Of a stretch of 29,054 bases of DNA, positions 6,843 through 29,054 are shown in pieces. The DNA is from a virus. The position numbers and the translations under genes are program-made. The DNA lies in UHGV virus genome UHGV-0296494, one strand, 5' to 3'. Numbering within the stretch: the stretch's first letter is position 1; each line of letters starts with the position of its first letter. A model generated the notes under the pieces. That model did not search any database. It saw nothing but the letters and a program-made list of their open reading frames with translations, and had not been told where the DNA came from.

Positions 6843-6865
6843 TAAAAAAACCGCGTCGGCGCGGT
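6843..6865 (-). terminator. Intrinsic-terminator-like hairpin directly after the major capsid gene
   Basis: Minus-strand ACCGCG-CCGA-CGCGGT followed by 7 T, about 20 nt after the capsid stop. A second hairpin (GCCCGCA..TGCGGGC, 6822-6841) lies just before the connector SD. Confidence 0.5.
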
Positions 6866-6886
6866 CTGTAACTGAACAACGAGTGG

Positions 6887-8104: not shown

Positions 8105-8118
8105 CGTCAGTAGTATCC

Positions 8119-10067: not shown

Positions 10068-10084
10068 ATCAGTAATAAGCTGTT

Positions 10085-11842
10085 TCACAGAATTAACAGG
10101 TCCTCATCAGGATCAAGCGTGGACAGAAAGTCATTCACGCCCCCGCCATTTACCAGAAAGCGGCTCATGGCTGTAAAAAGCGCAACAGGGCCGTCGATTT
10201 TGGCTTCCGGCGTGGATTTATTCGGGAAGATGTTGTCGTTTTTGTCCGGTTTTACAGTAACGTTAGACATCATCCAGTTCATGACCGGATGATTGCTGTG
10301 ATGGAAACGCCCGGCATAAACCAGTGATTCCGTTTCCTTCATGGCCTCTGACAGATTGCGGACCGTCTGCGGAACCTCCACCAGCGGTATCCCTTCTTCA
10401 GCCAGTGCCAGACTGAACTGCATTGCGCTCCACGGGTCAAATCCCAGTTCCCTGAGGTTTTCACCGCCAATCCATTCCAGTAAGTCACTTTTTATCTGAG
10501 CATGATCGATAACATCACCATCCGTCAGGATGAGCTTATCCATCTCCGCCCACTTCCGGTAAAGTTCTGCCTGCTGCCGCGAGCATCGTTCCAGCCGTCC
10601 TTCCGGAAGCCAGAATTTAAAATCAGCATGAACATGTCCGTTATCGGTTCGCCAGAGTTTTGCCGCCGCACAGATATCAATCTTATGAGCAAGGTCGACG
10701 CCGACCCACATGGGATATGTTTTCAGCTCATGTTGTGGAGCAATGTATTCGCACTTCTCCCACTTAATCATATCCATCCAGGCAGATTCGGCAGTGACCC
10801 ACACATTCATGTGTTTGGTAAAAAAATTCACCCGCGCAGAGACCTGCTCCTTCGCTTTTTTCGCCAGACGACGCAGATCATCCCAGCGTTTACAGATGCC
10901 CAGGCCAGGATTCGCTTTCTGCCAGACCGTTTCATCAAACGGATCATCTCCCTCATCAAGCGTGTAAATGATCGCAAAGTAAGAGTCGTCTTTTACAGCG
11001 CCCTCCACGTCGCTGTTATAGCCTCGCAATACCTTGATGGCGTAATCACGCTGCTCGTAACAAATCCCTTCCTTGTTAAAGCCAGCCGTGGTGATACCAA
11101 ATAACAGGGACTGCAGACGGGCACCGGTTGCCGTTTCCAGAACGTCCCACACGTCGCGGGTTTTATGTGCATGCAGCTCATCAATAATGGCGCAGTGGAT
11201 GTTCAGACCGTCCAGGTTGTTTGCATCCGAGGAAAGCGGTTCAAATTTTGATGCGCTCTGCTCCTGGTAAATCGCCAGCTTGTTGAAATCAAACAACCGC
11301 CCGAGTGTCGACCGGGCTTTTCTGACCATATTTTTGGCGTCTTCAAACACGATTCTGGCCTGGTCACGCGTGGTTGCGGCTGAATACACCTCAGCTCCGC
11401 CTTCACTATCTGCCCCCGTCATATACAGGCCGATACCCGATGACAGGGTTGATTTTGCGTTTTTACGGGCGACTTCGTTGTACGCCGTCCGGAACCGGCG
11501 CACCATCACCGGACGTCCGCTGCCATCGCTGCGCATGACAACTTCCCCGGTTTCTTCATTGACCAGCGGAATGACAAAACCAAAAATATTAATGAGGATA
11601 AATACATGCCAGTCCATCAACTCAATGGGCTGGCCTGCCAGTGCCCCTTTTACATGAGGCACAAATTTGTAGAAATTCAGGATGTGCTGCGCACGGGGTT
11701 CACTGAAATAAATCCCCCGCTTTTCGCCGTACTTCAGATCATCAAGAAAACGCTGGCAGGCCAGGCGGACAAATTCGCCAGCAACAATTTCTCCTGCAAC
11801 AACACGTTCGGCGTAGCGGATCCCGTCAGCCACTTTTGCCAT
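10085..11842 (-). CDS. Terminase large subunit
   Basis: 585-aa ORF; start overlaps the small terminase stop (ATGA). Size and position between TerS and portal. Confidence 0.9.
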   Translation of the reverse strand: MAKVADGIRYAERVVAGEIVAGEFVRLACQRFLDDLKYGEKRGIYFSEPRAQHILNFYKFVPHVKGALAGQPIELMDWHVFILINIFGFVIPLVNEETGEVVMRSDGSGRPVMVRRFRTAYNEVARKNAKSTLSSGIGLYMTGADSEGGAEVYSAATTRDQARIVFEDAKNMVRKARSTLGRLFDFNKLAIYQEQSASKFEPLSSDANNLDGLNIHCAIIDELHAHKTRDVWDVLETATGARLQSLLFGITTAGFNKEGICYEQRDYAIKVLRGYNSDVEGAVKDDSYFAIIYTLDEGDDPFDETVWQKANPGLGICKRWDDLRRLAKKAKEQVSARVNFFTKHMNVWVTAESAWMDMIKWEKCEYIAPQHELKTYPMWVGVDLAHKIDICAAAKLWRTDNGHVHADFKFWLPEGRLERCSRQQAELYRKWAEMDKLILTDGDVIDHAQIKSDLLEWIGGENLRELGFDPWSAMQFSLALAEEGIPLVEVPQTVRNLSEAMKETESLVYAGRFHHSNHPVMNWMMSNVTVKPDKNDNIFPNKSTPEAKIDGPVALFTAMSRFLVNGGGVNDFLSTLDPDEDLLIL

Positions 11843-12324
11843 CAGTCTCTCGCTTTTAAAAGCTCTGCCAGCGGATCAACATTATCCGGTCCGGCGGTAT
11901 TTACTTTTGCCCGGCTTGCCGGTGACATACCAAATTCTGCAAGCATCGCCCGGATCCGCTTCCAGGCATCCGCTTTCATCGCAGCAGCCGGGTGTGCCTT
12001 AATCAGCACATCACCGTTCTGCGTTTTCGAGCGGTAGGTGTACCCCTCAACATCGAGTGTTTCGCAGTGATGCCGGTATTCGGTATAGGCTTCCACCAGT
12101 AGCTCAAGCGCACGCGCATCAAGCTGAGAAATGATCCCTTCCGCATTCAGCTCTTCCGCCATTCGCCTGAACCAGTACTTCCCCTGCGCCCCTAAATGTT
12201 GCGGAATTTTAGGGAGACCTTTTTCATCCTTTTTAGCGGTTTTTTTGAGGTCTTTAACTGGCCGCTTTGAGGGGTTGCCTCGTATCAAATGCAGGCGTGG
12301 CGGGGTTTTCGGGGGTCCAGACAT
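11842..12324 (-). CDS. Terminase small subunit (P27-like)
   Basis: 160-aa ORF immediately upstream of TerL with a basic N-terminus (MSGPPKTPPRLHLIRGNPSKRPVKDLKK); ATG at 12324. Confidence 0.8.
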   Translation of the reverse strand: MSGPPKTPPRLHLIRGNPSKRPVKDLKKTAKKDEKGLPKIPQHLGAQGKYWFRRMAEELNAEGIISQLDARALELLVEAYTEYRHHCETLDVEGYTYRSKTQNGDVLIKAHPAAAMKADAWKRIRAMLAEFGMSPASRAKVNTAGPDNVDPLAELLKARD

Positions 12325-12471
12325 AATCGGTTTTACCTATCAATCATTTAATCACATTCCAAAAAAAAGTTTTCGAACCTGCGGCGATGCGAGGAAAGGT
12401 CAGGCGGCGGTACTGAGCAGCCAGGGTTGCAGAGATTTGGCCTGCCCCTCCCCTACAGATGGGAACTGTTA

Positions 12472-12822
12472 TCAATTGATGCGTTCGCGCGCTGTTTTTG
12501 CTTTATGACAGGGCCAGCACAGACTCTGCAGGTTACTGTCTGCATCCGTGCCACCATGAGCTTTCGGAATGATGTGGTCCACAGTTCTGGCTTCAACGGC
12601 TCTCCCATTGCGCAGGCAGTTCTGACACAGATGATTATCACGCTTCAGTATGCGCGCACGTATGGCATCCCATTTCGAGCCATAGCCACGCTGGTGGCGG
12701 CTCAGTCCGCGTTGATGCTGTACCCATCCTTCGCCACGATGTTTATCGCAGTAACCAGAACTGTCTGTGGTTGTACCTGCACATCCACGCTTACGGCAGG
12801 CGCGTGGGATTCGTGGGGGCAT
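12472..12822 (-). CDS. HNH endonuclease (phage packaging-associated)
   Basis: Contains CxxC...DHIIPKAHGGTDADSNLQSLCWPCH, an HNH motif with zinc-binding cysteine pairs. The track ORF starts at a TTG at 12921; trimmed to ATG 12822, which has a GGAG SD 6 nt upstream. Confidence 0.85.
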   Translation of the reverse strand: MPPRIPRACRKRGCAGTTTDSSGYCDKHRGEGWVQHQRGLSRHQRGYGSKWDAIRARILKRDNHLCQNCLRNGRAVEARTVDHIIPKAHGGTDADSNLQSLCWPCHKAKTARERIN

Positions 12823-12942
12823 ATGTACTCCAATGAAGAAGCCACCGACATAGCCTCCTCCATTCATAGTGAAACTATTTTCATCTACCCAGTAATGAAT
12901 TCTTTGTAGAGTTGTGATCAATACAACTCACTAATGGAGAGG

Positions 12943-12964
12943 CTTGTCCAACACGTTGGACAAG
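12943..12964. repeat. Perfect 22-bp palindrome CTTGTCCAAC-AC-GTTGGACAAG
   Basis: Read directly: 10-bp arms are exact reverse complements. Further GGACA motifs follow at 12983 and 12996. Lies in the divergent junction upstream of the HNH gene. Confidence 0.6.
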
Positions 12965-13044
12965 TTTCCTGTTTGATTTACTGGACACTATAGAAGGACA
13001 GAATGCCTTCATCACTCGAATAACATCAATTAAGGAGGTTCAAC

Positions 13045-13167
13045 ATGTTTCATTCCACAAATCATCAGGCTGTAATTATGGCTGCATCAGCTTGTGCCAC
13101 AGACCTTTTCCGCTTCACTTTGAGCCTGATTCATTTCTACCTGACCGGCTCGCCTCTATCTTTTTAA
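13045..13167 (+). CDS. Hypothetical 40-aa protein with near-consensus ribosome-binding site
   Basis: TAAGGAGGT at 13031-13039, 5 nt before ATG 13045. Translation MFHSTNHQAVIMAASACATDLFRFTLSLIHFYLTGSPLSF-stop. Not in the ORF track (under 60 aa). Confidence 0.3.
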   Translation: MFHSTNHQAVIMAASACATDLFRFTLSLIHFYLTGSPLSF

Positions 13168-13483
13168 TCCCCGCTTTATCCAAATTGCATTGCCAGAATG
13201 CCGACAACAGACTGACATTCAAATCCTGACTACCTCCGATAGGCTGAGCATCCACCTATATAGTTTTAATTTTCATCAATCCATTTAACTATCGTTTAAT
13301 TGTTGTCACATAGGATTCTGCCGTTTTTAACAATGAAGAAACAGGAAGCTGTATTACAGAAAGTGCTACTACTGTATCCCGATGCGATGTATGTAATGTG
13401 AGTCAGATAATGGCACAGGATGTGGTGATGTGGCAGTCTGGAACACAGGATATATTGTCAGAATAAGACCCGTAGGAATAAAA

Positions 13484-13810
13484 ATGAAAAGACGCCTTTT
13501 ACTACTTTTTCTGTTATCTGTCCTGGCAGTGGGATGCTCGCAGCAAAAAGCTGATGAGCCCCGGCAATTAGTGACGGTGTATCCACGATATCCGGAATAT
13601 GCTGCAGCAAATTATATCAAGGGGCTGGTTGAGGTTAAGTTCGATATTGGTGCTGATGGGACTGTGACACGGATCGTTTTTCTCCGCTCAGAGCCTCATA
13701 ATTTGTTTCGTGATGAAGTGGTGAAGGCCATGGCGAAATGGCGATTTGAAAAGAATCGCCCCTGTCAGGGAGTGAAGAGACAATTTATCTTTACGCCGTC
13801 ACGTCCTTGA
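13484..13810 (+). CDS. Lipoprotein with TonB C-terminal-like domain (putative moron)
   Basis: Trimmed to the internal ATG 13484 (AGGA SD 6 nt upstream). N-terminus MKRRLLLLFLLSVLAVGC is a lipoprotein signal with lipobox LAVG-C. The rest (YPEYAAANYIKGLVEVKFDIGADGTVTRIVFLRSEPHNLFRDEVVKAMAKWRF) matches the TonB C-terminal motif pattern. Confidence 0.65.
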   Translation: MKRRLLLLFLLSVLAVGCSQQKADEPRQLVTVYPRYPEYAAANYIKGLVEVKFDIGADGTVTRIVFLRSEPHNLFRDEVVKAMAKWRFEKNRPCQGVKRQFIFTPSRP

Positions 13811-14173
13811 TGCTTCCAGGTAGAGAGGGGCTGGAAGCAGGAGAAAAATGAAAGAGCCAGCGGTTATATTTTTGTCATGGCTGACGAGGAATGATGGAAG
13901 AAGGCGTTGTATGCCACACAACGCCTCACTGTTCATTTCTTCTTTTTCTCTGGTGGAACCCGATGAATAAGAGTTGCACTGGTTTCCGATGAGATGGCGA
14001 TATACTCGGGCAAAGTATGCTGGCAGTTTTCCAACTGGTCAAAAATACCTGCTCTCGTCTGTTGCAATGCCTGCAGCATGCGGCGGCAATGCGCCTTGCT
14101 TTTACTAACCATCTTTCCTTCCTCTATCAGTCGCTGCGTGAACTCATCATGGAATACCAGGTAAATGCGGATG

Positions 14174-14425
14174 TTATCGGTTTTGGCTACGCAGCATAGT
14201 ACAAAACGGACAGGTGCATCCCGGGACGGGGGAGGCGTCACATGTCCCTGTGATGGTTGTTCCGGGTAATGTACTGTGTGGGGCATAAAAATGTCCGATA
14301 ATTTTACTTTCTACCGCAGTTAGTTGATTCGTTGGTCCTGGTAGCACATTGGGCGAGGATTTAAATGCCAGGCAACTGAAGGATGATGTCGCAAGGGAGA
14401 TAGCGAGAATATTTCTGATTTTCAT
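14174..14425 (-). CDS. Hypothetical small secreted protein (83 aa)
   Basis: Internal ATG at 14425 of ORF 14174..14494(-) gives MKIRNILAISLATSSFSCLA-FKSSP..., a basic N-terminus plus hydrophobic core like a Sec signal peptide. Weak SD; overlaps another ORF; lies in the conserved right-end region next to cos. Confidence 0.2.
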   Translation of the reverse strand: MKIRNILAISLATSSFSCLAFKSSPNVLPGPTNQLTAVESKIIGHFYAPHSTLPGTTITGTCDASPVPGCTCPFCTMLRSQNR

Positions 14426-14573
14426 TTGATGATGCCTCTGTGTGAAATGACGGTAAACGACGCACTTGTGCCGGCACATAATAGCAAGCACCATAATAGA
14501 TCAGATTCGATTCTTGCTGTAAGTGATAATTATTCTCGTTTTCGGGTCCTTTCCGTCGATCCAACAGGTTACG

Positions 14574-14745
14574 GGGCGGCGACCTCGCGGGTTTTCGCTA
14601 TTTATGAAAATTTTCCGGTTTAAGGCGTTTCCGTTCTTCTTCGCCGTAACTTAATGTTTTTATTTAAAACACTCCCTGAAAAGAAAGGAAACGACAGGTG
14701 CTGAAAACGGGCTTTTTGGCCTCTGTCGTTTCCTTTCTCTGTTTT
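14574..14745 (+). other. cos: Lambda-type cos site: cosN 12-nt cohesive-end sequence at 14574-14585 plus cosB terminase/IHF binding region
   Basis: CAGGTTACG|GGGCGGCGACCTCGCGGGTTTTCGCTATTTATGAAAATTTTCCGGTTTAAGGCGTTTCCGTTCTTCTTCG matches the lambda right-end/left-end junction as I remember it. R-site-like repeats (CGTTTCCGTTCT; AGGAAACGACAG...CTGTCGTTTCCT) precede nu1. Confidence 0.85.
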
Positions 14746-14762
14746 TGTCCGTGGAATGAACA

Positions 14763-15282
14763 ATGGAAGTCAACAAAAAGCAGCTGGCTGACATTTTCGG
14801 CGCGAGTATCCGTACTATTCAGAACTGGCAGGAGCAGGGAATGCCCGTTCTGCGAGGCGGTGGGAAGGGTAATGAGGTGCTTTATGACTCTGCCGACGTC
14901 ATAAAATGGTATGCCGAAAGGGATGCTGAAATTGAGAACGAAAAGCTGCGCCGGGAGGTTGAAGAACTGCGACAGGCCAGCGAGACAGATCTCCAGCCAG
15001 GGACTATTGAGTACGAACGCCATCGACTTACGCGTGCGCAGGCCGACGCACAGGAGCTGAAAAATGCCAGAGACTCCGCTGAAGTGGTGGAAACCGCATT
15101 CTGTACTTTCGTGCTGTCGCGGATCGCAGGTGAAATTGCCAGTATTCTCGACGGGATCCCCCTGTCGGTGCAGCGGCGTTTTCCGGAACTGGAAAACCGA
15201 CATGTTGATTTCCTGAAACGGGATATCATCAAAGCCATGAACAAAGCAGCCGCGCTGGATGAACTGATACCGGGGTTGCTGA

Positions 15283-15308
<26 letters not shown>
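14763..15308 (+). CDS. nu1: Terminase small subunit Nu1
   Basis: 181 aa, MEVNKKQLADIFGASIRTIQNWQEQGMPVLRGGGKGNEVLYD..., essentially lambda Nu1. Confidence 0.97.
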
Positions 15309-18989
<3,681 letters not shown>

Positions 18990-19009
<20 letters not shown>

Positions 19010-20309
19010 TCTCCCGCATATTGCCAGTATGGCCTTTAATGAGCCGCTGATGCTTGAACCCGCCTATGCGCGGGTTTTCTTTTGTGCGCTTGCAGGCCAG
19101 CTTGGGATCAGCCGCCTGACGGATGCGGTATCCGGCGACAGCCTGACTGCCGGAGAGGCACCCGCGGCGCTGGCGTTATCCGTTGATGATGACGGACCAC
19201 GACAGGCCCGCAGTTATCAGGTCATGAACGGCATCGCCGTGCTGCCGGTGTCCGGCACGCTGGTCAGTCGGACGCGAGCGCTGCAGCCGTATTCGGGGAT
19301 GACCGGTTACAACGGCATTATCGCCCGTCTGCAACAGGCTGCCAGCGACCCGATGGTGGACGGCATTCTGCTCGATATGGATACGCCAGGCGGGATGGTG
19401 GCAGGGGCATTTGACTGCGCTGACATCATCGCCCGTGTGCGTGACATAAAGCCGGTATGGGCGCTGGCCAACGACATGAACTGCAGTGCAGGTCAGTTGC
19501 TTGCCAGCGCCGCCTCCCGACGTCTGGTCACGCAGACCGCCCGGACAGGCTCCATCGGCGTCATGATGGCTCACAGTAATTACGGTGCTGCGCTGGAGAA
19601 ACAGGGCGTGGAAATCACGCTGATTTACAGCGGCAGCCATAAGGTGGATGGCAACCCCTACAGCCATCTACCGGATGATGTCCGGGAAACACTGCAGTCC
19701 CGGATGGATGCAACCCGCCGGATGTTTGCACAGAAGGTGTCGGCATATACCGGCCTGTCCGTGCAGGCTGTGCTGGATACCGAGGCTGCAGTGTACAGCG
19801 GTCAGGAGGCCATTGATGCCGGACTGGCTGATGAACTTGTTAACAGTACCGATGCGATCACCGTCATGCGTGATGCACTGGATGCACGTAAATCCCGTCT
19901 CTCAGGAGGGCGAATGACCAAAGAGACTCAATCAACAACTGTTTCAGCCACTGCTTCGCAGGCTGACGTTACTGGCGTGGTGCCAGCGACGGAGGGCGAG
20001 AACGCCAGCGCTGCGCAGCCGGACGTGAACGCGCAGATCACCGCAGCGGTTGCGGCAGAAAACAGTCGCATTATGGGGATCCTCAACTGTGAGGAAGCTC
20101 ACGGACGCGAAGAACAGGCACGCGTGCTGGCCGAAACCCCTGGTATGACCGTGGAAACGGCCCGCCGCATTCTGGCAGTTGCACCACAGAGTGCACAGGC
20201 GCGCAGTGACACTGCGCTGGATCGTCTGATGCAGGGGGCACCGGCACCGCTGGCTGCAGGTAACCTGGCATCTGATGCCGTTAACGATTTGCTGAACACA
20301 CCAGTGTAA
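18990..20309 (+). CDS. C: Capsid assembly protease C
   Basis: GTG start at 18990 with AGGAGGAGAAGA SD; 20-nt overlap with B as in lambda; product TAELRNLPHIASMAFNEPLMLEPAYARVFF.... The longer track ORF 18855..20309 is not used. Confidence 0.9.
19704..20309 (+). CDS. nu3: Scaffolding protein Nu3 (in-frame internal start within C)
   Basis: ATG at 19704 in the C frame (MDATRRMFAQKV...), at the same offset from the C start as lambda nu3. Expression is inferred from lambda. Confidence 0.75.
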   Translation: MDATRRMFAQKVSAYTGLSVQAVLDTEAAVYSGQEAIDAGLADELVNSTDAITVMRDALDARKSRLSGGRMTKETQSTTVSATASQADVTGVVPATEGENASAAQPDVNAQITAAVAAENSRIMGILNCEEAHGREEQARVLAETPGMTVETARRILAVAPQSAQARSDTALDRLMQGAPAPLAAGNLASDAVNDLLNTPV

Positions 20310-20318
20310 GGGATGTTT

Positions 20319-20651
20319 ATGACGAGCAAAGAAACCTTTACCCATTACCAGCCGCTGGGCAACAGTGACCCGGCTCATACCGCAACCGCGCCCGGCGGAT
20401 TGAGTGCGAAAGCGCCTGCAATGACCCCGCTGATGCTGGACACCTCCAGCCGTAAGCTGGTTGCGTGGGATGGCACCACCGACGGTGCTGCCGTTGGCAT
20501 TCTTGCGGTTGCTGCTGACCAGACCAGCACCACGCTGACGTTCTACAAGTCCGGCACGTTCCGTTATGAGGATGTGCTCTGGCCGGAGGCTGCCAGCGAC
20601 GAGACGAAAAAACGGACCGCGTTTGCCGGAACGGCAATCAGCATCGTTTAA
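20319..20651 (+). CDS. D: Head decoration protein D
   Basis: 110 aa, [52 protein letters not shown].... Confidence 0.95.
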
Positions 20652-20670
20652 CTTTACCCTTCATCACTAA

Positions 20671-20693
20671 AGGCCGCCTGTGCGGCTTTTTTT
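20671..20693 (+). terminator. Hairpin plus T-run between D and E
   Basis: AGGCCGC-CTGT-GCGGCTT followed by TTTTTTT, then a second T-run immediately before the E ATG at 20707. Confidence 0.45.
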
Positions 20694-20706
20694 ACGGGAT
20701 TTTTTT

Positions 20707-21732
20707 ATGTCGATGTACACAACCGCCCAGCTGCTGGCGGCAAATGAGCAGAAATTTAAGTTTGATCCGCTGTTTCTGCGTCTCTTTTTCCGTGAGAGCT
20801 ATCCCTTCACCACGGAGAAAGTCTATCTCTCACAAATTCCGGGACTGGTAAACATGGCGCTGTACGTTTCGCCGATTGTTTCCGGTGAGGTTATCCGTTC
20901 CCGTGGCGGCTCCACCTCTGAATTTACGCCGGGATATGTCAAGCCGAAGCATGAAGTGAATCCGCAGATGACCCTGCGTCGCCTGCCGGATGAAGATCCG
21001 CAGAATCTGGTGGACCCGGCTTACCGCCGCCGTCGCATCATCATGCAGAACATGCGTGACGAAGAGCTGGCCATTGCTCAGGTCGAAGAGATGCAGGCAG
21101 TTTCTGCCGTGCTTAAGGGCAAATACACCATGACCGGTGAAGCCTTCGATCCGGTTGAGGTGGATATGGGCCGCAGTGAGGAGAATAACATCACGCAGTC
21201 CGGCGGCACGGAGTGGAGCAAGCGTGACAAGTCCACGTATGACCCGACCGACGATATCGAAGCCTACGCGCTGAACGCCAGCGGTGTGGTGAATATCATC
21301 GTGTTCGATCCGAAAGGCTGGGCGCTGTTCCGTTCCTTCAAAGCCGTCAAGGAGAAGCTGGATACCCGTCGTGGTTCTAATTCCGAGCTGGAGACAGCGG
21401 TGAAAGACCTGGGTAAAGCGGTGTCCTATAAGGGGATGTATGGCGATGTGGCCATCGTCGTGTATTCCGGACAGTACGTGGAAAACGGCGTCAAAAAGAA
21501 CTTCCTGCCGGACAACACGATGGTGCTGGGGAACACTCAGGCACGCGGTCTGCGCACCTATGGCTGCATTCAGGATGCGGACGCACAGCTCGAAGGCATT
21601 AACGCCTCTGCCCGTTACCCGAAAAACTGGGTGACCACCGGCGATCCGGCGCGTGAGTTCACCATGATTCAGTCAGCACCGCTGATGCTGCTGGCTGACC
21701 CTGATGAGTTCGTGTCCGTACAACTGGCGTAA
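20707..21732 (+). CDS. E: Major capsid protein E
   Basis: 341 aa from ATG 20707 (MSMYTTAQLLAANEQKFKFDPLFLRLFFRESYPF...). The track ORF begins at an upstream alternative start. Confidence 0.97.
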   Translation: MSMYTTAQLLAANEQKFKFDPLFLRLFFRESYPFTTEKVYLSQIPGLVNMALYVSPIVSGEVIRSRGGSTSEFTPGYVKPKHEVNPQMTLRRLPDEDPQNLVDPAYRRRRIIMQNMRDEELAIAQVEEMQAVSAVLKGKYTMTGEAFDPVEVDMGRSEENNITQSGGTEWSKRDKSTYDPTDDIEAYALNASGVVNIIVFDPKGWALFRSFKAVKEKLDTRRGSNSELETAVKDLGKAVSYKGMYGDVAIVVYSGQYVENGVKKNFLPDNTMVLGNTQARGLRTYGCIQDADAQLEGINASARYPKNWVTTGDPAREFTMIQSAPLMLLADPDEFVSVQLA

Positions 21733-21734
21733 TC

Positions 21735-21752
21735 ATGGCCCTTCGGGGCCAT
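21735..21752 (+). terminator. Stem-loop immediately after major capsid gene E
   Basis: ATGGCCC-TTCG-GGGCCAT with UUCG tetraloop followed by TGTTTCTCT. Could be a weak terminator or an mRNA-stabilising 3' hairpin. Confidence 0.35.
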
Positions 21753-21773
21753 TGTTTCTCTGTGGAGGAGTCC

Positions 21774-22172
21774 ATGACGAAAGATGAACTGATTGCCCGT
21801 CTCCGCTCGCTGGGTGAACAACTGAACCGTGATGTCAGCCTGACGGGGACGAAAGAAGAACTGGCGCTCCGTGTGGCAGAGCTGGAAGAGGAGCTTGATG
21901 ACACGGATGAAACTGCCGGTCAGGACACCCCTCTCAGCCGGGAAAATGTGCTGACCGGACATGAAAATGAGGTGGGATCAGCGCAGCCGGATACCGTGAT
22001 TCTGGATACGTCTGAACTGGTCACGGTCGTGGCACTGGTGACGCTGCATACTGATGCACTTCACGCCACGCGGGATGAACCTGTGGCATTTGTGCTTCCG
22101 GGAACGGCGTTCCGTGTCTCTGCCGGTGTGGCAGCCGAAATGACAGAACGTGGCCTGGCCAGAATGCAATAA
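21774..22172 (+). CDS. FI: DNA-packaging protein FI
   Basis: 132 aa from ATG 21774 with GGAGG SD (MTKDELIARLRSLGEQLNRDVSLTGTKEELALRVAELEEELDD...). Confidence 0.9.
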   Translation: MTKDELIARLRSLGEQLNRDVSLTGTKEELALRVAELEEELDDTDETAGQDTPLSRENVLTGHENEVGSAQPDTVILDTSELVTVVALVTLHTDALHATRDEPVAFVLPGTAFRVSAGVAAEMTERGLARMQ

Positions 22173-22183
22173 CGGGAGGCGCT

Positions 22184-22537
22184 GTGGCTGATTTCGATAA
22201 CCTGTTCGATGCTGCCATTGTCCGCGCCGATGAAACGATACGCGGGTACATGGGAACGTCAGCCACCATGACATCCGGTGAGCAGTCCGGCGCAGTAATA
22301 CGTGGTGTTTTTGATGACCCTGAAAATATCAGCTATGCCGGACAGGGCGTGCGCGTTGAAGGCTCCAGCCCGTCCCTGTTTGTCCGGACTGATGATGTGC
22401 GGCAGCTGCGGCGCGGCGACACGCTGACCATCGGTGAGGAAAACTTCTGGATAGACCGGATTTCGACGGATGATGGCGGAAGCTGTCATCTCTGGCTTGG
22501 GCGTGGCGTGCCGCCTGCCGTTAACCGTCGTCGCTGA
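22184..22537 (+). CDS. FII: Head-tail joining protein FII
   Basis: 117 aa, GTG start with GGGAGG SD; product ADFDNLFDAAIVRADETIRGYMGTSATMTSGEQSG.... Confidence 0.9.
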   Translation: MADFDNLFDAAIVRADETIRGYMGTSATMTSGEQSGAVIRGVFDDPENISYAGQGVRVEGSSPSLFVRTDDVRQLRRGDTLTIGEENFWIDRISTDDGGSCHLWLGRGVPPAVNRRR

Positions 22538-22548
22538 AGGGGGGATGT

Positions 22549-23127
22549 ATGGCCATAAAAGGTCTTGAGCAGGCCGTTGAAAACCTCAGCCGTATCAGCA
22601 GAACGGCGGTGCCCGGTGCCGCCGCAATGGCCATTAACCGCGTTGCTTCATCCGCGATATCGCAGTCGGCGTCACAGGTTGCCCGTGAGACAAAGGTACG
22701 CCGGAAACTGGTAAAGGAAAGGGCCAGGCTGAAAAGGGCCACGGTCAAAAATCCGCAGGCCAGAATCAAGGTTAACCGGGGGGATTTGCCCGTAATCAGG
22801 CTGGGTAACGCGCGGGTTGTCCTGTCCCGACGCAGGCGTCGTAAAAAGGGGCAGCGTTCATCCCTGAAAGGTGGCGACAGCGTGCTTGTGGTGGGAAACC
22901 GTCGTATTCCCGGCGCGTTTATTCAGCAACTGAAAAATGGCCGATGGCATGTCATGCAGCGTGTGGCCGGGAAAAACCGTTACCCCATTGATGTGGTGAA
23001 AATCCCGATGGCAGTGCCGCTGACCACGGCGTTTAAACAGAATATTGAGCGGATACGGCGTGAACGTCTTCCGAAAGAGCTGGGCTATGCGCTGCAGCAT
23101 CAACTGAGGATGGTAATAAAGCGATGA
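22549..23127 (+). CDS. Z: Tail completion protein Z
   Basis: 192 aa, MAIKGLEQAVENLSRISRTAVPGAAAMAINRVASS.... Confidence 0.95.
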   Translation: MAIKGLEQAVENLSRISRTAVPGAAAMAINRVASSAISQSASQVARETKVRRKLVKERARLKRATVKNPQARIKVNRGDLPVIRLGNARVVLSRRRRRKKGQRSSLKGGDSVLVVGNRRIPGAFIQQLKNGRWHVMQRVAGKNRYPIDVVKIPMAVPLTTAFKQNIERIRRERLPKELGYALQHQLRMVIKR

Positions 23128-23519
23128 AACATACAGAACTCCGTGCAGCCGTACTGGATGCACTGGAAAAACATGACACCGGGGCGACGCTTTTTGATGG
23201 TCGCCCCGCTGTTTTTGATGAGGAGGATTTTCCGGCAGTTGCCGTTTATCTCACCGGCGCTGAATACACGGGCGAAGAGCTGGACAGCGATACCTGGCAG
23301 GCGGAGCTGCATATTGAAGTTTTCCTGCCTGCTCAGGTGCCGGATTCAGAGCTGGATTCGTGGATGGAGTCCCGGATTTATCCGGTGATGAGCGATGTCC
23401 CGGCACTGTCAGATTTGATCACCAGTATGGTGGCCAGTGGCTATGACTACCGGCGCGACGATGATGCGGGCCTGTGGAGTTCAGCCGATCTGACTTATGT
23501 CATTACCTATGAAATGTGA
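23124..23519 (+). CDS. U: Tail terminator protein U
   Basis: 131 aa, [54 protein letters not shown]...; ATGA overlap with Z. Confidence 0.95.
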
Positions 23520-23526
23520 GGACGAT

Positions 23527-24267
23527 ATGCCTGTACCAAATCCAGTAATGCCGGTGAAAGGGGCCGGGACCACCCTGTGGGTTTATAAGGGGAACGGTGA
23601 CCCTTATGCGAACCCGCTTTCAGACGTTGACTGGTCGCGTCTGGCTAAAGTTAAAGACCTGACGCCCGGCGAACTGAGCGCTGAGTCCTATGACGACAGC
23701 TATCTCGATGATGAAGATGCGGACTGGACTGCGACCGGGCAGGGGCAGAAATCTGCCGGAGATACCAGCTTCACGCTGGCGTGGATGCCCGGAGAGCAGG
23801 GGCAGCAGGCGCTGCTGGCGTGGTTTAATGAAGGGGATACCCGTGCCTATAAAATCCGCTTCCCGAACGGCACGGTCGATGTGTTCCGCGGCTGGGTCAG
23901 CAGTATCGGTAAGGCGGTGACGGCGAAGGAAGTGATCACCCGCACGGTGAAAGTCACCAACGTGGGACGTCCGTCGATGGCAGAAGATCGCAGCACGGTG
24001 ACGGCGACAACCGGCATGACGGTGACACCCGCCAGTGCTTCCGTAGTGAAAGGGCAGAGCACTACGCTGACCGTGGCATTCCAGCCGGAGGGCGCAACCG
24101 ACAAGAGCTTCCGTGCGGTGTCTGCGGATAAAACAAAAGCCACCGTGTCGGTCAGCGGTATGACCATCACCGTGAACGGCGTTGCTGCAGGCAAGGTCAA
24201 CATTCCGGTTGTATCCGGTAATGGTGAGTTTGCTGCGGTTGCAGAAATCACCGTCACCGCCAGTTAA
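23527..24267 (+). CDS. V: Major tail protein V
   Basis: 246 aa from ATG 23527 ([41 protein letters not shown]...), with C-terminal Ig-like domain. Confidence 0.95.
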
Positions 24268-24282
24268 TCCGGAGAGTCAGCG

Positions 24283-24705
24283 ATGTTCCTGAAAACCGAA
24301 TCATTTGAATATAACGGCGTGACCGTCACGCTTTCTGAACTGTCAGCCCTGCAGCGTATTGAGCATCTTGCCCTGATGAAACGGCAGGCAGAACCGGCGG
24401 GATCCGACAGCAACCGGCAGGTTACTGTGGAAGACGTCATCAGAACCGGCGCGTTTCTGGTGGCGATGTCCCTGTGGCATAACCATCCGAAGAAGACGCA
24501 GATGCCGTCCATGAATGAAGCCGTTAAACAGATTGAGCAGGAAGTGCTTACCACCTGGCCCACAGAGGCAATTTCTCATGCTGAAAACGTGGTGTACCGG
24601 CTGTCCGGTATGTATGAGTTTGTGGTGAATAATGCCCCCGAACAGGCAGAGGACGCCGGGCCTGCAGAGCCTGTTTCTGCGGGAAAGTGTTCGACGGTGA
24701 GCTGA
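24283..24705 (+). CDS. G: Tail assembly chaperone G
   Basis: 140 aa, MFLKTESFEYNGVTVTLSELSALQRIEHLALMKRQAEP...; ends ...SAGKCSTVS across the slippery site. Confidence 0.95.
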   Translation: MFLKTESFEYNGVTVTLSELSALQRIEHLALMKRQAEPAGSDSNRQVTVEDVIRTGAFLVAMSLWHNHPKKTQMPSMNEAVKQIEQEVLTTWPTEAISHAENVVYRLSGMYEFVVNNAPEQAEDAGPAEPVSAGKCSTVS

Positions 24706-25121
24706 GTTTTGCCCTGAAACTGGCGCGTGAGATGGGGCGACCCGACTGGCGTGCCATGCTTGCCGGGATGTCATCCACGGAGTATGCCGACTGGCACCGC
24801 TTTTACAGTACCCATTATTTTCATGATGTTCTGCTGGATATGCACTTTTCCGGGCTGACGTACACCGTGCTCAGCCTGTTTTTCAGCGATCCGGATATGC
24901 ATCCGCTGGATTTCAGTCTGCTGAACCGGCGCGAGGCTGACGAAGAGCCTGAAGATGATGTGCTGATGCAGAAAGCGGCAGGGCTTGCCGGAGGTGTCCG
25001 CTTTGGCCCGGACGGGAATGAAGTTATCCCCGCTTCCCCGGATGTGGCGGACATGACGGAGGATGACGTAATGCTGATGACAGTATCAGAAGGGATCGCA
25101 GGAGGAGTCCGGTATGGCTGA
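24283..25121 (+). CDS. T: Tail assembly chaperone G-T fusion via programmed -1 frameshift at G_GGA_AAG (24681-24687)
   Basis: Slippery heptamer GGGAAAG read in sequence. The -1 frame continues as VFDGELSFALKLAREMGRPDWRAMLAGMSSTEYADWHRF..., the lambda T sequence. Confidence 0.85.
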
Positions 25122-27675
25122 ACCGGTAGGCGATCTGGTCGTTGATTTGAGTCTGGATGCGGCCAGATTTGACGAGCAGATGGCCAGAGTCAGGCGTCAT
25201 TTTTCCGGTACGGAAAGTGATGCGAAAAAAACAGCGGCAGTCGTTGAACAGTCGCTGAGCCGACAGGCGCTGGCTGCACAGAAAGCGGGGATTTCCGTCG
25301 GGCAGTATAAAGCCGCCATGCGTATGCTGCCTGCACAGTTCACCGACGTGGCCACGCAGCTTGCAGGCGGGCAAAGTCCGTGGCTGATCCTGCTGCAACA
25401 GGGGGGGCAGGTGAAGGACTCCTTCGGCGGGATGATCCCCATGTTCAGGGGGCTTGCCGGTGCGATCACCCTGCCGATGGTGGGGGCCACCTCGCTGGCG
25501 GTGGCGACCGGTGCGCTGGCGTATGCCTGGTATCAGGGCAACTCAACCCTGTCCGATTTCAACAAAACGCTGGTCCTTTCCGGCAATCAGGCGGGTCTGA
25601 CGGCAGATCGTATGCTGGTCCTGTCCAGAGCCGGGCAGGCGGCAGGGCTGACGTTTAACCAGACCAGCGAGTCACTCAGCGCACTGGTTAAGGCGGGGGT
25701 AAGCGGTGAGGCTCAGATTGCGTCCATCAGCCAGAGTGTGGCGCGTTTCTCCTCTGCATCCGGCGTGGAGGTGGACAAGGTCGCTGAAGCCTTCGGGAAG
25801 CTGACCACAGACCCGACGTCGGGGCTGACGGCGATGGCACGCCAGTTCCATAACGTGACGGCGGAGCAGATTGCGTATGTTGCTCAGTTGCAGCGTTCCG
25901 GCGATGAAGCCGGGGCATTGCAGGCGGCGAACGAGGCCGCAACGAAAGGGTTTGATGACCAGACCCGCCGCCTGAAAGAGAACATGGGCACGCTGGAGAC
26001 CTGGGCAGACAGGACTGCGCGGGCATTCAAATCCATGTGGGATGCGGTGCTGGATATTGGTCGTCCTGATACCGCGCAGGAGATGCTGATTAAGGCAGAG
26101 GCTGCGTTTAAGAAAGCAGACGACATCTGGAATCTGCGCAAGGATGATTATTTTGTTAACGATGAAGCGCGGGCGCGTTACTGGGATGATCGTGAAAAGG
26201 CCCGTCTTGCGCTTGAAGCCGCCCGAAAGAAGGCTGAACAGCAGAGTCAACAGGACAAAAATGCGCAGCAGCAGAGCGATACCGAAGCGTCACGGCTGAA
26301 ATATACCGAAGAGGCGCAGAAGGCTTACGAACGGCTGCAGACGCCGCTGGAGAAATATGCCGCCCGTCAGGAAGAACTGAATAAGGCCCTGAAAGACGGA
26401 AAAATCCTGCAGGCAGATTACAACACGCTGATGGCGGCAGCGAAAAAGGACTATGAAACGACACTGAAAAAGCCGAAGCAGTCCGGCGTGAAGGTGTCTG
26501 CGGGCGATCGTCAGGAAGACAGTGCTCATGCTGCCCTGCTGACGCTTCAGGCTGAACTCCGGACGCTGGAGAAGCATGCCGGAGCAAATGAGAAAATCAG
26601 CCAGCAGCGCCGGGATTTGTGGAAGGCGGAGAGTCAGTTCGCGGTACTGGAGGAGGCGGCGCAACGTCGCCAGCTGTCTGTACAGGAGAAATCCCTGCTG
26701 GCGCATAAAGATGAGACGCTGGAGTACAAACGCCAGCTGGCTGCACTTGGCGACAAGGTTACGTATCAGGAGCGCCTGAACGCGCTGGCGCAGCAGGCGG
26801 ATAAATTCGCACAGCAGCAACGGGCAAAACGGGCCGCCATTGATGCGAAAAGCCGGGGGCTGACTGACCGGCAGGCAGAACGGGAAGCCACGGAACAGCG
26901 CCTGAAGGAACAGTATGGCGATAATCCGCTGGCGCTGAATAACGTCATGTCAGAGCAGAAAAAGACCTGGGCGGCTGAAGACCAGCTTCGCGGGAACTGG
27001 ATGGCAGGCCTGAAGTCCGGCTGGAGTGAGTGGGAAGAGAGCGCCACGGACAGTATGTCGCAGGTAAAAAGTGCAGCCACGCAGACCTTTGATGGTATTG
27101 CACAGAATATGGCGGCGATGCTGACCGGCAGTGAGCAGAACTGGCGCAGCTTCACCCGTTCCGTGCTGTCCATGATGACAGAAATTCTGCTTAAGCAGGC
27201 AATGGTGGGGATTGTCGGGAGTATCGGCAGCGCCATTGGCGGGGCTGTTGGTGGCGGCGCATCCGCGTCAGGCGGTACAGCCATTCAGGCCGCTGCGGCG
27301 AAATTCCATTTTGCAACCGGAGGATTTACGGGAACCGGCGGCAAATATGAGCCAGCGGGGATTGTTCACCGTGGTGAGTTTGTCTTCACGAAGGAGGCAA
27401 CCAGCCGGATTGGCGTGGGGAATCTTTACCGGCTGATGCGCGGCTATGCCACCGGCGGTTATGTCGGTACACCGGGCAGCATGGCAGACAGCCGGTCGCA
27501 GGCGTCCGGGACGTTTGAGCAGAATAACCATGTGGTGATTAACAACGACGGCACGAACGGGCAGATAGGTCCGGCTGCTCTGAAGGCGGTGTATGACATG
27601 GCCCGCAAGGGTGCCCGTGATGAAATTCAGACACAGATGCGTGATGGTGGCCTGTTCTCCGGAGGTGGACGATGA
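25114..27675 (+). CDS. H: Tail tape measure protein H
   Basis: 853 aa, MAEPVGDLVVDLSLDAARFDEQMARVRRHFSGTESDAKKTAAVVEQ...; same length as lambda H. Confidence 0.97.
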   Translation: MAEPVGDLVVDLSLDAARFDEQMARVRRHFSGTESDAKKTAAVVEQSLSRQALAAQKAGISVGQYKAAMRMLPAQFTDVATQLAGGQSPWLILLQQGGQVKDSFGGMIPMFRGLAGAITLPMVGATSLAVATGALAYAWYQGNSTLSDFNKTLVLSGNQAGLTADRMLVLSRAGQAAGLTFNQTSESLSALVKAGVSGEAQIASISQSVARFSSASGVEVDKVAEAFGKLTTDPTSGLTAMARQFHNVTAEQIAYVAQLQRSGDEAGALQAANEAATKGFDDQTRRLKENMGTLETWADRTARAFKSMWDAVLDIGRPDTAQEMLIKAEAAFKKADDIWNLRKDDYFVNDEARARYWDDREKARLALEAARKKAEQQSQQDKNAQQQSDTEASRLKYTEEAQKAYERLQTPLEKYAARQEELNKALKDGKILQADYNTLMAAAKKDYETTLKKPKQSGVKVSAGDRQEDSAHAALLTLQAELRTLEKHAGANEKISQQRRDLWKAESQFAVLEEAAQRRQLSVQEKSLLAHKDETLEYKRQLAALGDKVTYQERLNALAQQADKFAQQQRAKRAAIDAKSRGLTDRQAEREATEQRLKEQYGDNPLALNNVMSEQKKTWAAEDQLRGNWMAGLKSGWSEWEESATDSMSQVKSAATQTFDGIAQNMAAMLTGSEQNWRSFTRSVLSMMTEILLKQAMVGIVGSIGSAIGGAVGGGASASGGTAIQAAAAKFHFATGGFTGTGGKYEPAGIVHRGEFVFTKEATSRIGVGNLYRLMRGYATGGYVGTPGSMADSRSQASGTFEQNNHVVINNDGTNGQIGPAALKAVYDMARKGARDEIQTQMRDGGLFSGGGR

Positions 27676-28001
27676 AGACCTTCCGCTGGAAAGTGAAACC
27701 CGGTATGGATGTGGCTTCGGTCCCTTCTGTAAGAAAGGTGCGCTTTGGTGATGGCTATTCTCAGCGAGCGCCTGCCGGGCTGAATGCCAACCTGAAAACG
27801 TACAGCGTGACGCTTTCTGTCCCCCGTGAGGAGGCCACGGTACTGGAGTCGTTTCTGGAAGAGCACGGGGGCTGGAAATCCTTTCTGTGGACGCCGCCTT
27901 ATGAGTGGCAGCAGATAAAGGTGACCTGCGCAAAATGGTCGTCGCGGGTCAGTATGCTGCGTGTTGAGTTCAGCGCAGAGTTTGAACAGGTGGTGAACTG
28001 A
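27672..28001 (+). CDS. M: Minor tail protein M
   Basis: 109 aa, MKTFRWKVKPGMDVASVPSVRKVRFGDGYSQRAPAGLNANLK...; ATGA overlap with the H stop. Confidence 0.95.
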   Translation: MKTFRWKVKPGMDVASVPSVRKVRFGDGYSQRAPAGLNANLKTYSVTLSVPREEATVLESFLEEHGGWKSFLWTPPYEWQQIKVTCAKWSSRVSMLRVEFSAEFEQVVN

Positions 28002-28699
28002 TGCAGGATATCCGGCAGGAAACACTGAATGAATGCACCCGTGCGGAGCAGTCGGCCAGCGTGGTGCTCTGGGAAATCGACCTGACAGAGGTCGGTGGAG
28101 AACGTTATTTTTTCTGTAATGAGCAGAACGAAAAAGGTGAGCCGGTCACCTGGCAGGGGCGACAGTATCAGCCGTATCCCATTCAGGGGAGCGGTTTTGA
28201 ACTGAATGGCAAAGGCACCAGTACGCGCCCCACGCTGACGGTTTCTAACCTGTACGGTATGGTCACCGGGATGGCGGAAGATCTGCAGAGTCTGGTCGGC
28301 GGAACGGTGGTCCGGCGTAAGGTTTACGCCCGTTTTCTGGATGCGGTGAACTTCGTCAACGGAAACAGTTATGCCGATCCGGAGCAGGAGGTGATCAGCC
28401 GCTGGCGCATTGAGCAGTGCAGCGAACTGAGCGCGGTGAGTGCCTCCTTTGTACTGTCCACGCCGACGGAAACGGATGGCGCTGTTTTTCCGGGACGTAT
28501 CATGCTGGCCAACACCTGCACCTGGACCTATCGCGGTGACGAGTGCGGTTATAGCGGTCCGGCTGTCGCGGATGAATATGACCAGCCAACGTCCGATATC
28601 ACGAAGGATAAATGCAGCAAATGCCTGAGCGGTTGTAAGTTCCGCAATAACGTCGGCAACTTTGGCGGCTTCCTTTCCATTAACAAACTTTCGCAGTAA
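28001..28699 (+). CDS. L: Minor tail protein L
   Basis: 232 aa, MQDIRQETLNECTRAEQSASVVLWEIDLTEVGGERYFFCNEQNEK...; TGATG overlap with M. Confidence 0.97.
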   Translation: MQDIRQETLNECTRAEQSASVVLWEIDLTEVGGERYFFCNEQNEKGEPVTWQGRQYQPYPIQGSGFELNGKGTSTRPTLTVSNLYGMVTGMAEDLQSLVGGTVVRRKVYARFLDAVNFVNGNSYADPEQEVISRWRIEQCSELSAVSASFVLSTPTETDGAVFPGRIMLANTCTWTYRGDECGYSGPAVADEYDQPTSDITKDKCSKCLSGCKFRNNVGNFGGFLSINKLSQ

Positions 28700-28703
28700 T
28701 CCC

Positions 28704-28935
28704 ATGACACAGACAGAATCAGCGATTCTGGCGCACGCCCGGCGATGTGCGCCAGCGGAGTCGTGTGGCTTCGTGGTGAGAACGCCGAAGGGGGAAAGAT
28801 ATTTTCCCTGCGTGAATATCTCCGGTGAGCCGGAGGCGTATTTCCGGATGTCGCCGGAGGACTGGCTGCGGGCAGAGATGCAGGGTGAGATTGTGGCGCT
28901 GGTCCACAGCCACCCCGGTGGTCTGCCCTGGCTGA
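28704..28935 (+). pseudogene. K: Tail tip assembly protein K, 5' portion only (codons 1-77 counted from ATG 28704); reading frame is disrupted at an inversion junction
   Basis: MTQTESAILAHARRCAPAESCGFVV...EIVALVHSHPGGLPWL matches lambda K up to 28935, after which sequence becomes the reverse complement of a later K segment. The lambda-annotated K start corresponds to ATG 28848. Confidence 0.8.
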
Positions 28936-29054
28936 ATTCGGCACCGATGAACCAAAACAGCACAGCAGCACATCGCCCGGTTGTGCTGATGACAACGGCA
29001 CCTGATACAGCCCTGTGGCCTCCAGATTATCCAGATAGAGATTCTGACCGTGAC
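28936..29054 (-). pseudogene. K: Inverted internal fragment of a K gene (encodes ...HGQNLYLDNLEATGLYQVPLSSAQPGDVLLCCFGSSVPN on the minus strand)
   Basis: Reverse complement of 28936-29054 translates in frame to a K-internal peptide nearly identical to lambda K (NLYLDNLEATGLYQVPLSAAQPGDVLLCCFGSSVPN). Abuts the forward K fragment at 28935/28936. Confidence 0.75.

What the first reader, a model, noticed from the sequence alone, without database searches (positions are those of the whole stretch)
28704..29054. Inversion breakpoint inside tail gene K: forward K 5' part joined to reverse complement of a downstream K segment
Up to 28935 the plus strand encodes the K N-terminus (through ...HSHPGGLPWL). 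From 28936 the plus strand is the reverse complement of K-internal coding sequence; the minus strand there reads NLYLDNLEATGLYQVPLSSAQPGDVLLCCFGSSVPN. The two pieces are different parts of K, so this is not a simple hairpin. Homologous recombination between inverted K copies would give a forward-forward hybrid, so this is either an illegitimate inversion (as small as about 330 bp within one K gene, or a large one involving another prophage K), a foldback-type chimera, or an assembly artefact. The junction happens to create a GAATTC site at 28934-28939. Functionally, the module-2 K is broken (its chimeric frame stays open to the window edge), which would block tail-tip assembly.
Basis: partly seen in the sequence, partly recalled or inferred. 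Interest (0 to 1): 0.8.

Follow-up and report, generated by a model that had tools for sequence, protein, structure and literature searches.

The report
Chimeric join inside phage tail gene K
The strand flip inside tail gene K is really in the sequence, but it is one of three odd joins that stitch pieces of two well-known E. coli ST131 prophages into a ring, so it is most likely a sequencing or assembly chimera, not a biological inversion.

Summary
Window 28704-28935 is K nt 1-232. Window 28936-29054 is the exact reverse complement of K nt 558-440 of the same prophage (119/119). The join is blunt, the two ends lie 326 bp apart in the reference, and no inverted repeats flank them.

The join is not isolated. 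The window is a mosaic:
- 3-13335 is ST131 prophage A (100%).
- 13335-28935 is ST131 prophage B (100%).
- The last 119 nt are antisense K.

In strain 4/0, A and B lie about 0.87 Mb apart and face opposite ways. The A|B join at 13335 is also illegitimate (1 nt overlap). The window's first 7 nt continue antisense K from the window's end, apart from one missing G, so the three pieces appear to close a ring. That ring has no replication, lysogeny or lysis genes.

Neither tested join (K, A|B) occurs in 5,426 complete E. coli genomes, INPHARED (K only), PLSDB, IMG/VR, JGI metagenome contigs or GTDB representatives. No chimeric K protein exists among 15 billion proteins.

Best reading (about 0.65): a template-switch or assembly chimera, with K intact in the real prophage. 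A real rearrangement is not excluded without reads. Interest is low.

The parts
28704..28935 (+). 5' part of prophage-B tail gene K (nt 1-232, aa 1-77), cut inside the JAB/MPN domain between HSHPGGLPWL and SEAD
   Evidence: 100% to L001 K. Pfam Prok-JAB hit on aa 3-74, whereas intact K has JAB 3-105 plus NlpC/P60 114-224.
28935..28936 (.). Join J2: K nt 232 (+) abutted to K nt 558 (-). Blunt, 326 bp apart in the reference. Creates GAATTC at 28934-28939.
   Evidence: Absent from all collections searched.
28936..29054 (-). Segment Z: antisense copy of K nt 440-558. Matches prophage-B K 119/119 and prophage-A K 118/119 (SNP at nt 537).
13336..28703 (+). Rest of segment Y: lambda-like prophage B of ST131, from upstream of a TonB-family ORF through cos, Nu1/A, head and tail genes to L. 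100% to strain 4/1-1.
   Evidence: cosN at 14574-14585.
13335..13336 (.). Join J1: prophage A (just upstream of iss) abutted to prophage B (319 bp upstream of its own iss), with 1 nt overlap. The last 75 nt of the A side are identical to antisense B.
   Evidence: Absent from all collections searched.
3..13335 (-). Segment X: HK97-like prophage A of ST131 (L nt 296-1, M, tape measure, head genes, terminase, HNH). 100% to EC958.
1..7 (.). Probable join J3. CCACCAG equals the continuation of antisense K after window position 29054, minus one G. Position 2 (C) matches no prophage-A L allele.
   Evidence: 0 IMG/VR hits for the CC form against at least 120 for the CG form. All complete-genome matches begin at position 3.

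Best explanation
The K break is a chimeric join, not an inversion in a living prophage. It was made either during DNA amplification or library preparation (a polymerase switching to the opposite strand a few hundred bases away) or during assembly. It is one of three illegitimate joins (J1 at 13335, J2 at 28935, J3 across the window ends). Together they stitch 13.3 kb of ST131 prophage A, 15.6 kb of ST131 prophage B and 119 nt of antisense K into what looks like a closed 29-kb loop.

The window ends exactly where the antisense-K identity ends. This is what a graph-based assembler produces when a chimeric path re-enters genuine sequence. In the real genome, K of prophage B is most likely intact and colinear, as in every reference.

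Shown: the three-piece mosaic, the exact breakpoints, and their absence elsewhere. Inferred: that the joins are artefactual, and how they arose.
For: 1. J2 joins K nt 232 to antisense K nt 558 of the same gene, 326 bp away, and only 119 nt follow before the window stops.
2. J2 is absent everywhere searched:
- 0 of 5,426 complete E. coli genomes span J2, although 4,282 carry the colinear L-K sequence.
- It is absent from phage records, plasmids, IMG/VR, JGI metagenome contigs and GTDB representatives.
- No protein among 15 billion equals the chimeric K in any of three continuations.
- No protein fuses the K N-terminus to the antisense peptide.
3. The window has a second unique illegitimate join, J1, between two prophages. 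In strain 4/0 these lie at 1.272-1.288 Mb and 2.146-2.159 Mb. In chromosome terms J1 is a same-strand backward jump of 0.887 Mb, which neither an inversion nor a viable deletion can produce.
4. The window's first 7 nt continue antisense K from its last base, and position 2 fits no known L allele. I estimate the chance of this at about 1e-3. The pieces therefore appear to close a ring. That ring has two divergent structural modules and no replication, immunity, integration or lysis genes.
5. All three pieces are otherwise 100.0% identical to the references. The only differences are at the joins, apart from position 2, which lies within putative join J3.
6. No inverted repeats lie at the K breakpoints, so no recombination mechanism is suggested.
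7. An inverted sequence with an intervening deletion, joining segments less than 10 kb apart, is the signature of 85% of strand-displacement (MDA) chimeras in E. coli DNA (PMC1855051).
8. The exact antisense-K stretch is 119 nt. From my own knowledge, 119 is a default k step in MEGAHIT. Alternatively, K nt 440 is where the first 97-mer lies wholly inside the 111-nt run that K_A and K_B share. Either way, the window end sits at a graph landmark.
Against: - No reads, coverage or assembly graph are available, so artefact status is inferred, not shown.
- J2 has 0 bp microhomology, whereas about 77% of MDA chimeras have at least 2 bp (93.5% for inverted joins of segments less than 10 kb apart).
- A contig that runs straight through J1 and J2 without breaking suggests the joins were not a small minority of reads. 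A plain unitig assembler would branch if the genuine adjacencies were well covered.
- Two or three independent chimeras closing one loop is itself unlikely, unless loops are preferentially kept (for example, circular contigs selected for virus catalogues) or one chimeric circle was over-amplified.
- The ring closure lacks one G, so it is not perfect.
Confidence: 0.65

Rival explanations
1. A real complex rearrangement in the cell or culture. Illegitimate recombination between the two co-resident ST131 prophages (for example during co-induction and replication) produced a hybrid molecule or an amplified chromosomal unit carrying J1, J2 and J3. J2 could be either a local strand switch in K_B or a join of K_B to the antisense-lying K_A.
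For: - The contig passes through J1 and J2 without breaking.
- J3 shows 5-7 nt microhomology (ACCAG/CCACCAG), as template-switch or slipped-strand events do.
- A 119-nt inverted piece copied from nearby resembles the templated insertions of replication-based rearrangements.
- K_A lies antisense to K_B on the chromosome. A same-strand join of B to A would therefore look like a forward-to-reverse K junction (118/119 match).
Against: - It needs three illegitimate events with no selectable gene in the unit.
- J1 is a duplication- or circle-type join across 0.887 Mb.
- The 29-kb product has no replication or maintenance genes.
- At about 60% of lambda's 48.5-kb genome, it is below the roughly 75% minimum for cos-to-cos packaging (own knowledge).
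- The K join and the A|B join are each seen in no other genome or assembly.
Confidence: 0.18
2. A real, simple 326-bp inversion of K nt 233-558 within prophage B, with the second breakpoint 207 bp beyond the window end. This would inactivate K.
For: The geometry of J2 (head-to-head, both ends in one gene, Z 119/119 to K_B) is what one end of such an inversion would look like.
Against: - No inverted repeats or microhomology lie at the breakpoints to drive it.
- The predicted 154-aa product is not in 15 billion proteins.
- The inverted orientation is in 0 of 5,426 genomes.
- The window start continues antisense K and then switches to prophage A, instead of reading on to nt 233.
- The same window carries another unrelated illegitimate join (J1).
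Confidence: 0.07
3. The window is a pseudomolecule made by abutting separate draft contigs without spacers, so the joins are just contig boundaries.
For: - Three blocks, each 100% identical to reference, meet at sharp boundaries.
- The ends fall in tail genes L and K, which are multi-copy in ST131.
Against: - The start of Y (13335-13600) is single-copy in ST131 genomes and is not a repeat boundary.
- X ends 75 nt into an A/B-identical run and Y ends 25 nt into a 56-nt run. This gives no consistent k-mer overhang.
- A 119-nt 'contig' is below usual length cut-offs.
- The head-to-tail closure of the window is not expected from this model.
Confidence: 0.07

Closest known systems
Strand-displacement / template-switch chimeras (MDA-type 'inverted sequence with intervening deletion'; Lasken and Stockwell 2007, PMC1855051)
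   Same: The second segment is inverted, is taken from the same locus a few hundred bp away, and skips the sequence in between. Multi-segment chimeras and occasional long-range joins also occur.
   Different: J2 has no complementary bases at the join, whereas most proximal MDA chimeras have at least 2 bp. There is no evidence that the source DNA was amplified. Here the chimera is fixed in an assembled sequence, not seen in single reads.
Lambda gpK-type tail-tip assembly protein (JAB/MPN + NlpC/P60, 'C40 family peptidase')
   Same: The first 77 residues and the position just after gene L are identical to K of the ST131 lambda-like prophage. The N-terminal JAB domain is detected.
   Different: The ORF leaves K inside the HxH...S..D metal-binding motif. 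The NlpC/P60 half is absent from the plus strand. As written, the gene is not a functional K.
Prophage-mediated chromosomal inversions in E. coli (homologous recombination between oppositely oriented lambdoid prophages)
   Same: Two oppositely oriented lambdoid prophages with 96.5% identical K genes are involved.
   Different: Homologous exchange gives colinear hybrid genes at matching positions. Here nt 232 meets antisense nt 558, and J1 is a same-strand join, so this mechanism is excluded.
Tandem inversion duplications (snap-back junctions, Roth laboratory; own knowledge)
   Same: A head-to-head junction (J2) and, if its 75-nt left arm is read as antisense B, a tail-to-tail junction (J1) flank the same 15.6-kb segment, with similar spacings (326 and 319 bp).
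   Different: Beyond 75-110 nt, the left arm of J1 is prophage A, not inverted B. No quasi-palindromes lie at the joins. Copy number cannot be tested.

Membership tests
Lambda gpK tail-tip protein (JAB/MPN + NlpC/P60) | N-terminal JAB/MPN domain | tested here: met
   Pfam PF14464, E=4.3e-11, aa 3-74. It is truncated relative to 3-105 in intact K.
Lambda gpK tail-tip protein (JAB/MPN + NlpC/P60) | C-terminal NlpC/P60 peptidase domain in the same reading frame | tested here: not met
   No PF00877 hit in the window ORF, whereas intact K has it at aa 114-224. Only an antisense fragment of it is present.
Lambda gpK tail-tip protein (JAB/MPN + NlpC/P60) | Position immediately downstream of tail gene L | tested here: met
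   L (PF05100, E=3e-101) ends at 28699 and K starts at 28704.
Site-specific invertible DNA segment (Gin/Hin/Pin/Cin type) | Inverted-repeat crossover sites at both ends of the segment | tested here: not met
   No inverted repeat lies at L001 1969/1970 and 2295/2296. The breakpoint sequences are unrelated.
Site-specific invertible DNA segment (Gin/Hin/Pin/Cin type) | Both orientations found among related genomes | tested here: not met
   0 of 5,426 complete genomes carry the flipped junction, while 4,282 carry the colinear form.
Site-specific invertible DNA segment (Gin/Hin/Pin/Cin type) | Invertase gene adjacent | tested here: not met
   No recombinase is annotated in the matching reference regions that cover the window.
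Homologous-recombination inversion between inverted prophage copies | Junction at equivalent positions of the two copies, giving a colinear hybrid gene | tested here: not met
   K nt 232 is joined to antisense nt 558.
Template-switch / foldback chimera (MDA-type) | Second segment inverted relative to the first | tested here: met
Template-switch / foldback chimera (MDA-type) | Joined segments close together on the template (<10 kb) with the intervening sequence skipped | tested here: met
   The segments are 326 bp apart. Criterion taken from PMC1855051.
Template-switch / foldback chimera (MDA-type) | Short complementarity (>=2 bp) at the join (about 77% of cases) | tested here: not met
   0 bp at J2 and 1 nt at J1, but 5-7 nt at J3.
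Template-switch / foldback chimera (MDA-type) | Join supported by few reads or clipped reads, with the colinear form dominant in the same library | not testable with these tools
   No reads or coverage are available.
Tandem inversion duplication | Head-to-head and tail-to-tail junctions flanking one segment, with an inverted middle copy | tested here: inconclusive
   J2 is head-to-head. J1 is tail-to-tail only over its last 75-110 nt, and beyond that the arm is prophage A.

The most novel reading that the evidence does not exclude
The three joins are real. Two co-resident ST131 prophages, one HK97-like and one lambda-like, underwent replication-coupled template switching, for example during simultaneous induction. 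This produced a 29-kb hybrid circle or amplified unit with divergent packaging/head/tail modules. The K join, with its 119-nt inverted templated insertion, would be a footprint of that mechanism.
Probability: 0.15. Interest if true: 0.35.

Novelty: not a real feature. Interest (0 to 1): 0.1.

Why it matters
If the join is an artefact, its value is practical:
- The record is a chimera of two prophages and should not be read as a phage genome, a broken K gene or a structural variant.
- A short antisense tail at a contig end, together with other unique blunt joins, is a useful flag for such chimeras in sequence catalogues.

If it were real, it would be a single-isolate example of illegitimate recombination between co-resident prophages that kills a tail gene. 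That is of modest interest for prophage decay and is not a new kind of system.

Tried and rejected
1. EcoRI cut-and-ligate origin of the GAATTC. Rejected because neither parent sequence has a site at its breakpoint. The window holds only 3 sites against about 9 expected by chance.
2. Invertase-type or inverted-repeat-driven inversion. Rejected because there are no repeats at the breakpoints and no flipped form in any genome.
3. Homologous recombination between K_A and K_B (96.5% identical). Rejected because the joined positions differ and the product is not colinear.
4. A natural L allele explaining the C at window position 2. Rejected: 0 IMG/VR hits against at least 120 for the reference allele, and no complete genome matches from position 1.
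5. J1 as a large inversion. Rejected once strain 4/0 showed that X and Y both map to the same chromosomal strand. It is a backward same-strand jump.
6. Contigs abutted at repeat boundaries. There is no consistent k-mer overhang, and the start of Y is single-copy.
7. Tracing the source or a second instance. All of these found nothing:
- Exact 40-mers of J1 and J2 in three public collections.
- PLSDB and INPHARED.
- Exact look-ups of six junction-specific or end-truncated proteins.
- A homology search with the antisense peptide, which returned only ordinary antisense ORFs.
8. Assembler k-mer signatures (119-nt loop vertex, 97-mer in the shared run). These are suggestive only. I could not decide between them, and the literature search on k=119 was uninformative.

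Full report
**What is in the sequence**

The plus-strand ORF that starts at ATG 28704, five bases after gene L (28001-28699, Pfam Phage_tail_L, E=3e-101), reads as lambda-type tail protein K for 77 residues. It reaches ...HSHPGGLPWL and then becomes unrelated sequence that stays open to the window edge. The minus strand of 28936-29052 reads HGQNLYLDNLEATGLYQVPLSSAQPGDVLLCCFGSSVPN, an internal K peptide.

I compared the window with the ST131 strain 4/1-1 chromosome (locus L001).
- Window 26967-28935 is 100% colinear and stops at K nt 232.
- Window 28936-29054 is 119/119 identical to the reverse complement of K nt 440-558 of the same gene.
- The join is blunt. On each side, the base that would continue the parent sequence differs from what the window has.
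- The two joined bases are 326 bp apart.
- Intact K is a JAB/MPN domain (aa 3-105) plus an NlpC/P60 domain (aa 114-224). The break falls inside the JAB metal-binding motif, between HSHPGGLPWL and SEAD.
- GAATTC at 28934-28939 is created by the join, but neither parent has an EcoRI site there.

**The join is unique**

- Of 5,426 complete E. coli genomes, 4,282 contain the colinear L-K sequence, and the best matches stop at 28935.
- None spans a 195-bp probe laid across the junction.
- A 40-mer across the junction is absent from IMG/VR, JGI metagenome contigs and GTDB representative genomes.
- No INPHARED phage record or PLSDB plasmid record crosses it.
- Exact look-ups found nothing among about 15 billion proteins. 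I tried the chimeric K product in three possible continuations: stopped at the window edge, continued around a circle, and continued as a 326-bp inversion or foldback.
- A homology search with the antisense peptide returned only four ordinary antisense ORFs, none fused to the K N-terminus.

**No recombination mechanism is suggested**

- No inverted repeats lie at the two K breakpoints, and the flanking sequences are unrelated. This argues against an invertase or a repeat-driven inversion.
- Homologous exchange between the two K genes of the host (96.5% identical) would give a colinear hybrid, not nt 232 joined to antisense nt 558.

**The window as a whole is a mosaic**

- Segment X, window 3-13335, is 100% identical (13,333/13,333) to an HK97-like prophage of ST131. 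I call it prophage A (EC958).
- Segment Y, window 13335-28935, is 100% identical to a lambda-like ST131 prophage. I call it prophage B.
- Segment Z, the last 119 nt, is antisense K.
- The A|B join (J1) has one ambiguous base. It removes both iss/bor genes and everything upstream of them.
- J1 is absent from every complete genome, from plasmids, and from the three contig collections.

In strain 4/0, Y maps to chromosome (+) 1,272,062-1,287,662 and X to (+) 2,146,116-2,159,448, and the two prophages face opposite ways. J1 is therefore a same-strand backward jump of 0.887 Mb. That is a duplication- or circle-type join, not an inversion or a viable deletion.

The last 75 nt on the A side of J1 are identical to antisense B. 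In B coordinates the join looks like another local strand switch, spanning 319 bp. That is close to the 326 bp at K. I note the resemblance but cannot show that it is meaningful.

**The window ends appear to meet**

- After position 29054, antisense K would continue G-CCACCAG-TCATCC. The window begins CCACCAG-ACTCTGC, and from position 3 onward it is prophage A gene L.
- The C at position 2 fits no A-type L allele. The CC form has 0 exact IMG/VR hits, against at least 120 for the CG form. Every complete-genome match starts at position 3.
- I estimate the chance of this 7-nt agreement at about 1e-3.
- There is therefore probably a third join (J3): K nt 440 to L_A nt 298, with 5-7 nt microhomology and one G unaccounted for. 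X, Y and Z then form a closed chain of about 29 kb.

That chain carries two divergent packaging/head/tail modules and a lambda cosN (14574-14585). It has no replication, immunity, integration or lysis genes. It cannot be a phage genome, a plasmid or a simple chromosomal segment.

**Where the window stops**

The stretch identical to antisense K is exactly 119 nt, bounded by a mismatch at 28935 and another at position 1.
- One reading, from my own knowledge of assemblers, is that a chimeric loop touches the genuine K path at a single 119-mer. MEGAHIT's default k list includes 119. A loop contig carrying that k-mer at both ends would then have had one copy trimmed.
- Another reading is that K nt 440 is where the first 97-mer falls wholly inside the 111-nt run that K_A and K_B share.

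I cannot decide between these readings. Both place the window end at an assembly-graph landmark instead of a biological boundary.

**Best explanation and its weaknesses**

An inverted segment taken from a few hundred bases away, with the intervening sequence skipped, is the dominant form (85%) of chimeras made by strand-displacing polymerases on E. coli DNA. Most such chimeras involve sites less than 10 kb apart (PMC1855051). Similar foldback chimeras arise in library preparation (own knowledge).

I therefore rate a chimeric origin (amplification, library or assembly) as most likely, at about 0.65, with K intact in the real prophage.

Weaknesses of this reading:
- J2 has no microhomology.
- The contig runs through J1 and J2 without breaking, which suggests the joins were not rare in the data.
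- Several chimeras closing one loop needs either selective retention of apparently circular contigs or over-amplification of one chimeric circle.

**Rivals**

- A real multi-step illegitimate rearrangement between the two prophages: about 0.18.
- A real simple 326-bp inversion whose second breakpoint lies beyond the window: about 0.07. The apparent ring closure and the company of J1 argue against it.
- Spacer-less concatenation of draft contigs: about 0.07. The start of Y is single-copy, and there is no consistent k-mer overhang.

**Verdict**

- The functional consequence (K broken, tail-tip assembly blocked) applies only if the join exists in vivo.
- Nothing here is a new kind of system, so interest is low.
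- Read mapping, long reads or a junction PCR would settle the question.

Noticed in passing
window 13335-13336: An illegitimate join between the terminase-proximal ends of two different ST131 prophages (HK97-like on the minus strand, lambda-like on the plus strand). There is 1 nt overlap, both iss/bor genes are lost, and the join was absent from every collection searched for it (INPHARED not searched). In B coordinates it mimics a 319-bp strand switch, because the last 75 nt of the A side equal antisense B.
   Followed up: yes
window 1-7 and 29054: The first 7 nt (CCACCAG) continue antisense K from the last base of the window, apart from one missing G. Position 2 matches no known L allele. The window therefore behaves like a ring linearised at a third join (K nt 440 to L_A nt 298, 845 bp apart in prophage A coordinates).
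   Followed up: partly
window 28936-29054: The exact antisense-K stretch is 119 nt, which equals a default MEGAHIT k value. Alternatively, its end at K nt 440 marks the first 97-mer inside the 111-nt run shared by the K genes of prophages A and B. This may be an assembler signature.
   Followed up: partly
window 14574-14585 and 14682-14738: A lambda cosN sequence (GGGCGGCGACCT) lies upstream of the Nu1/nohD homologue. It is followed by a 26-nt imperfect palindrome with a 5-nt spacer, just before the Nu1 start.
   Followed up: partly
window 3-318 and 27981-28296: The 5' parts of the two L genes (modules 1 and 2) form an 84% inverted repeat spanning almost the whole window.
   Followed up: partly
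window 13484-13810: A small TonB-family (lipoprotein-like) ORF lies between the A|B join and cos. It is a moron-like cargo gene of the lambda-like ST131 prophage, annotated as such in the reference genomes.
   Followed up: no
PLSDB records NZ_CP082339.1, NZ_CP104294.1: Plasmid records of about 48.5 kb from Salmonella and Stenotrophomonas match the lambda-like module at 98%. They look like phage lambda DNA (probably spike-in or control DNA) deposited as plasmids.
   Followed up: no
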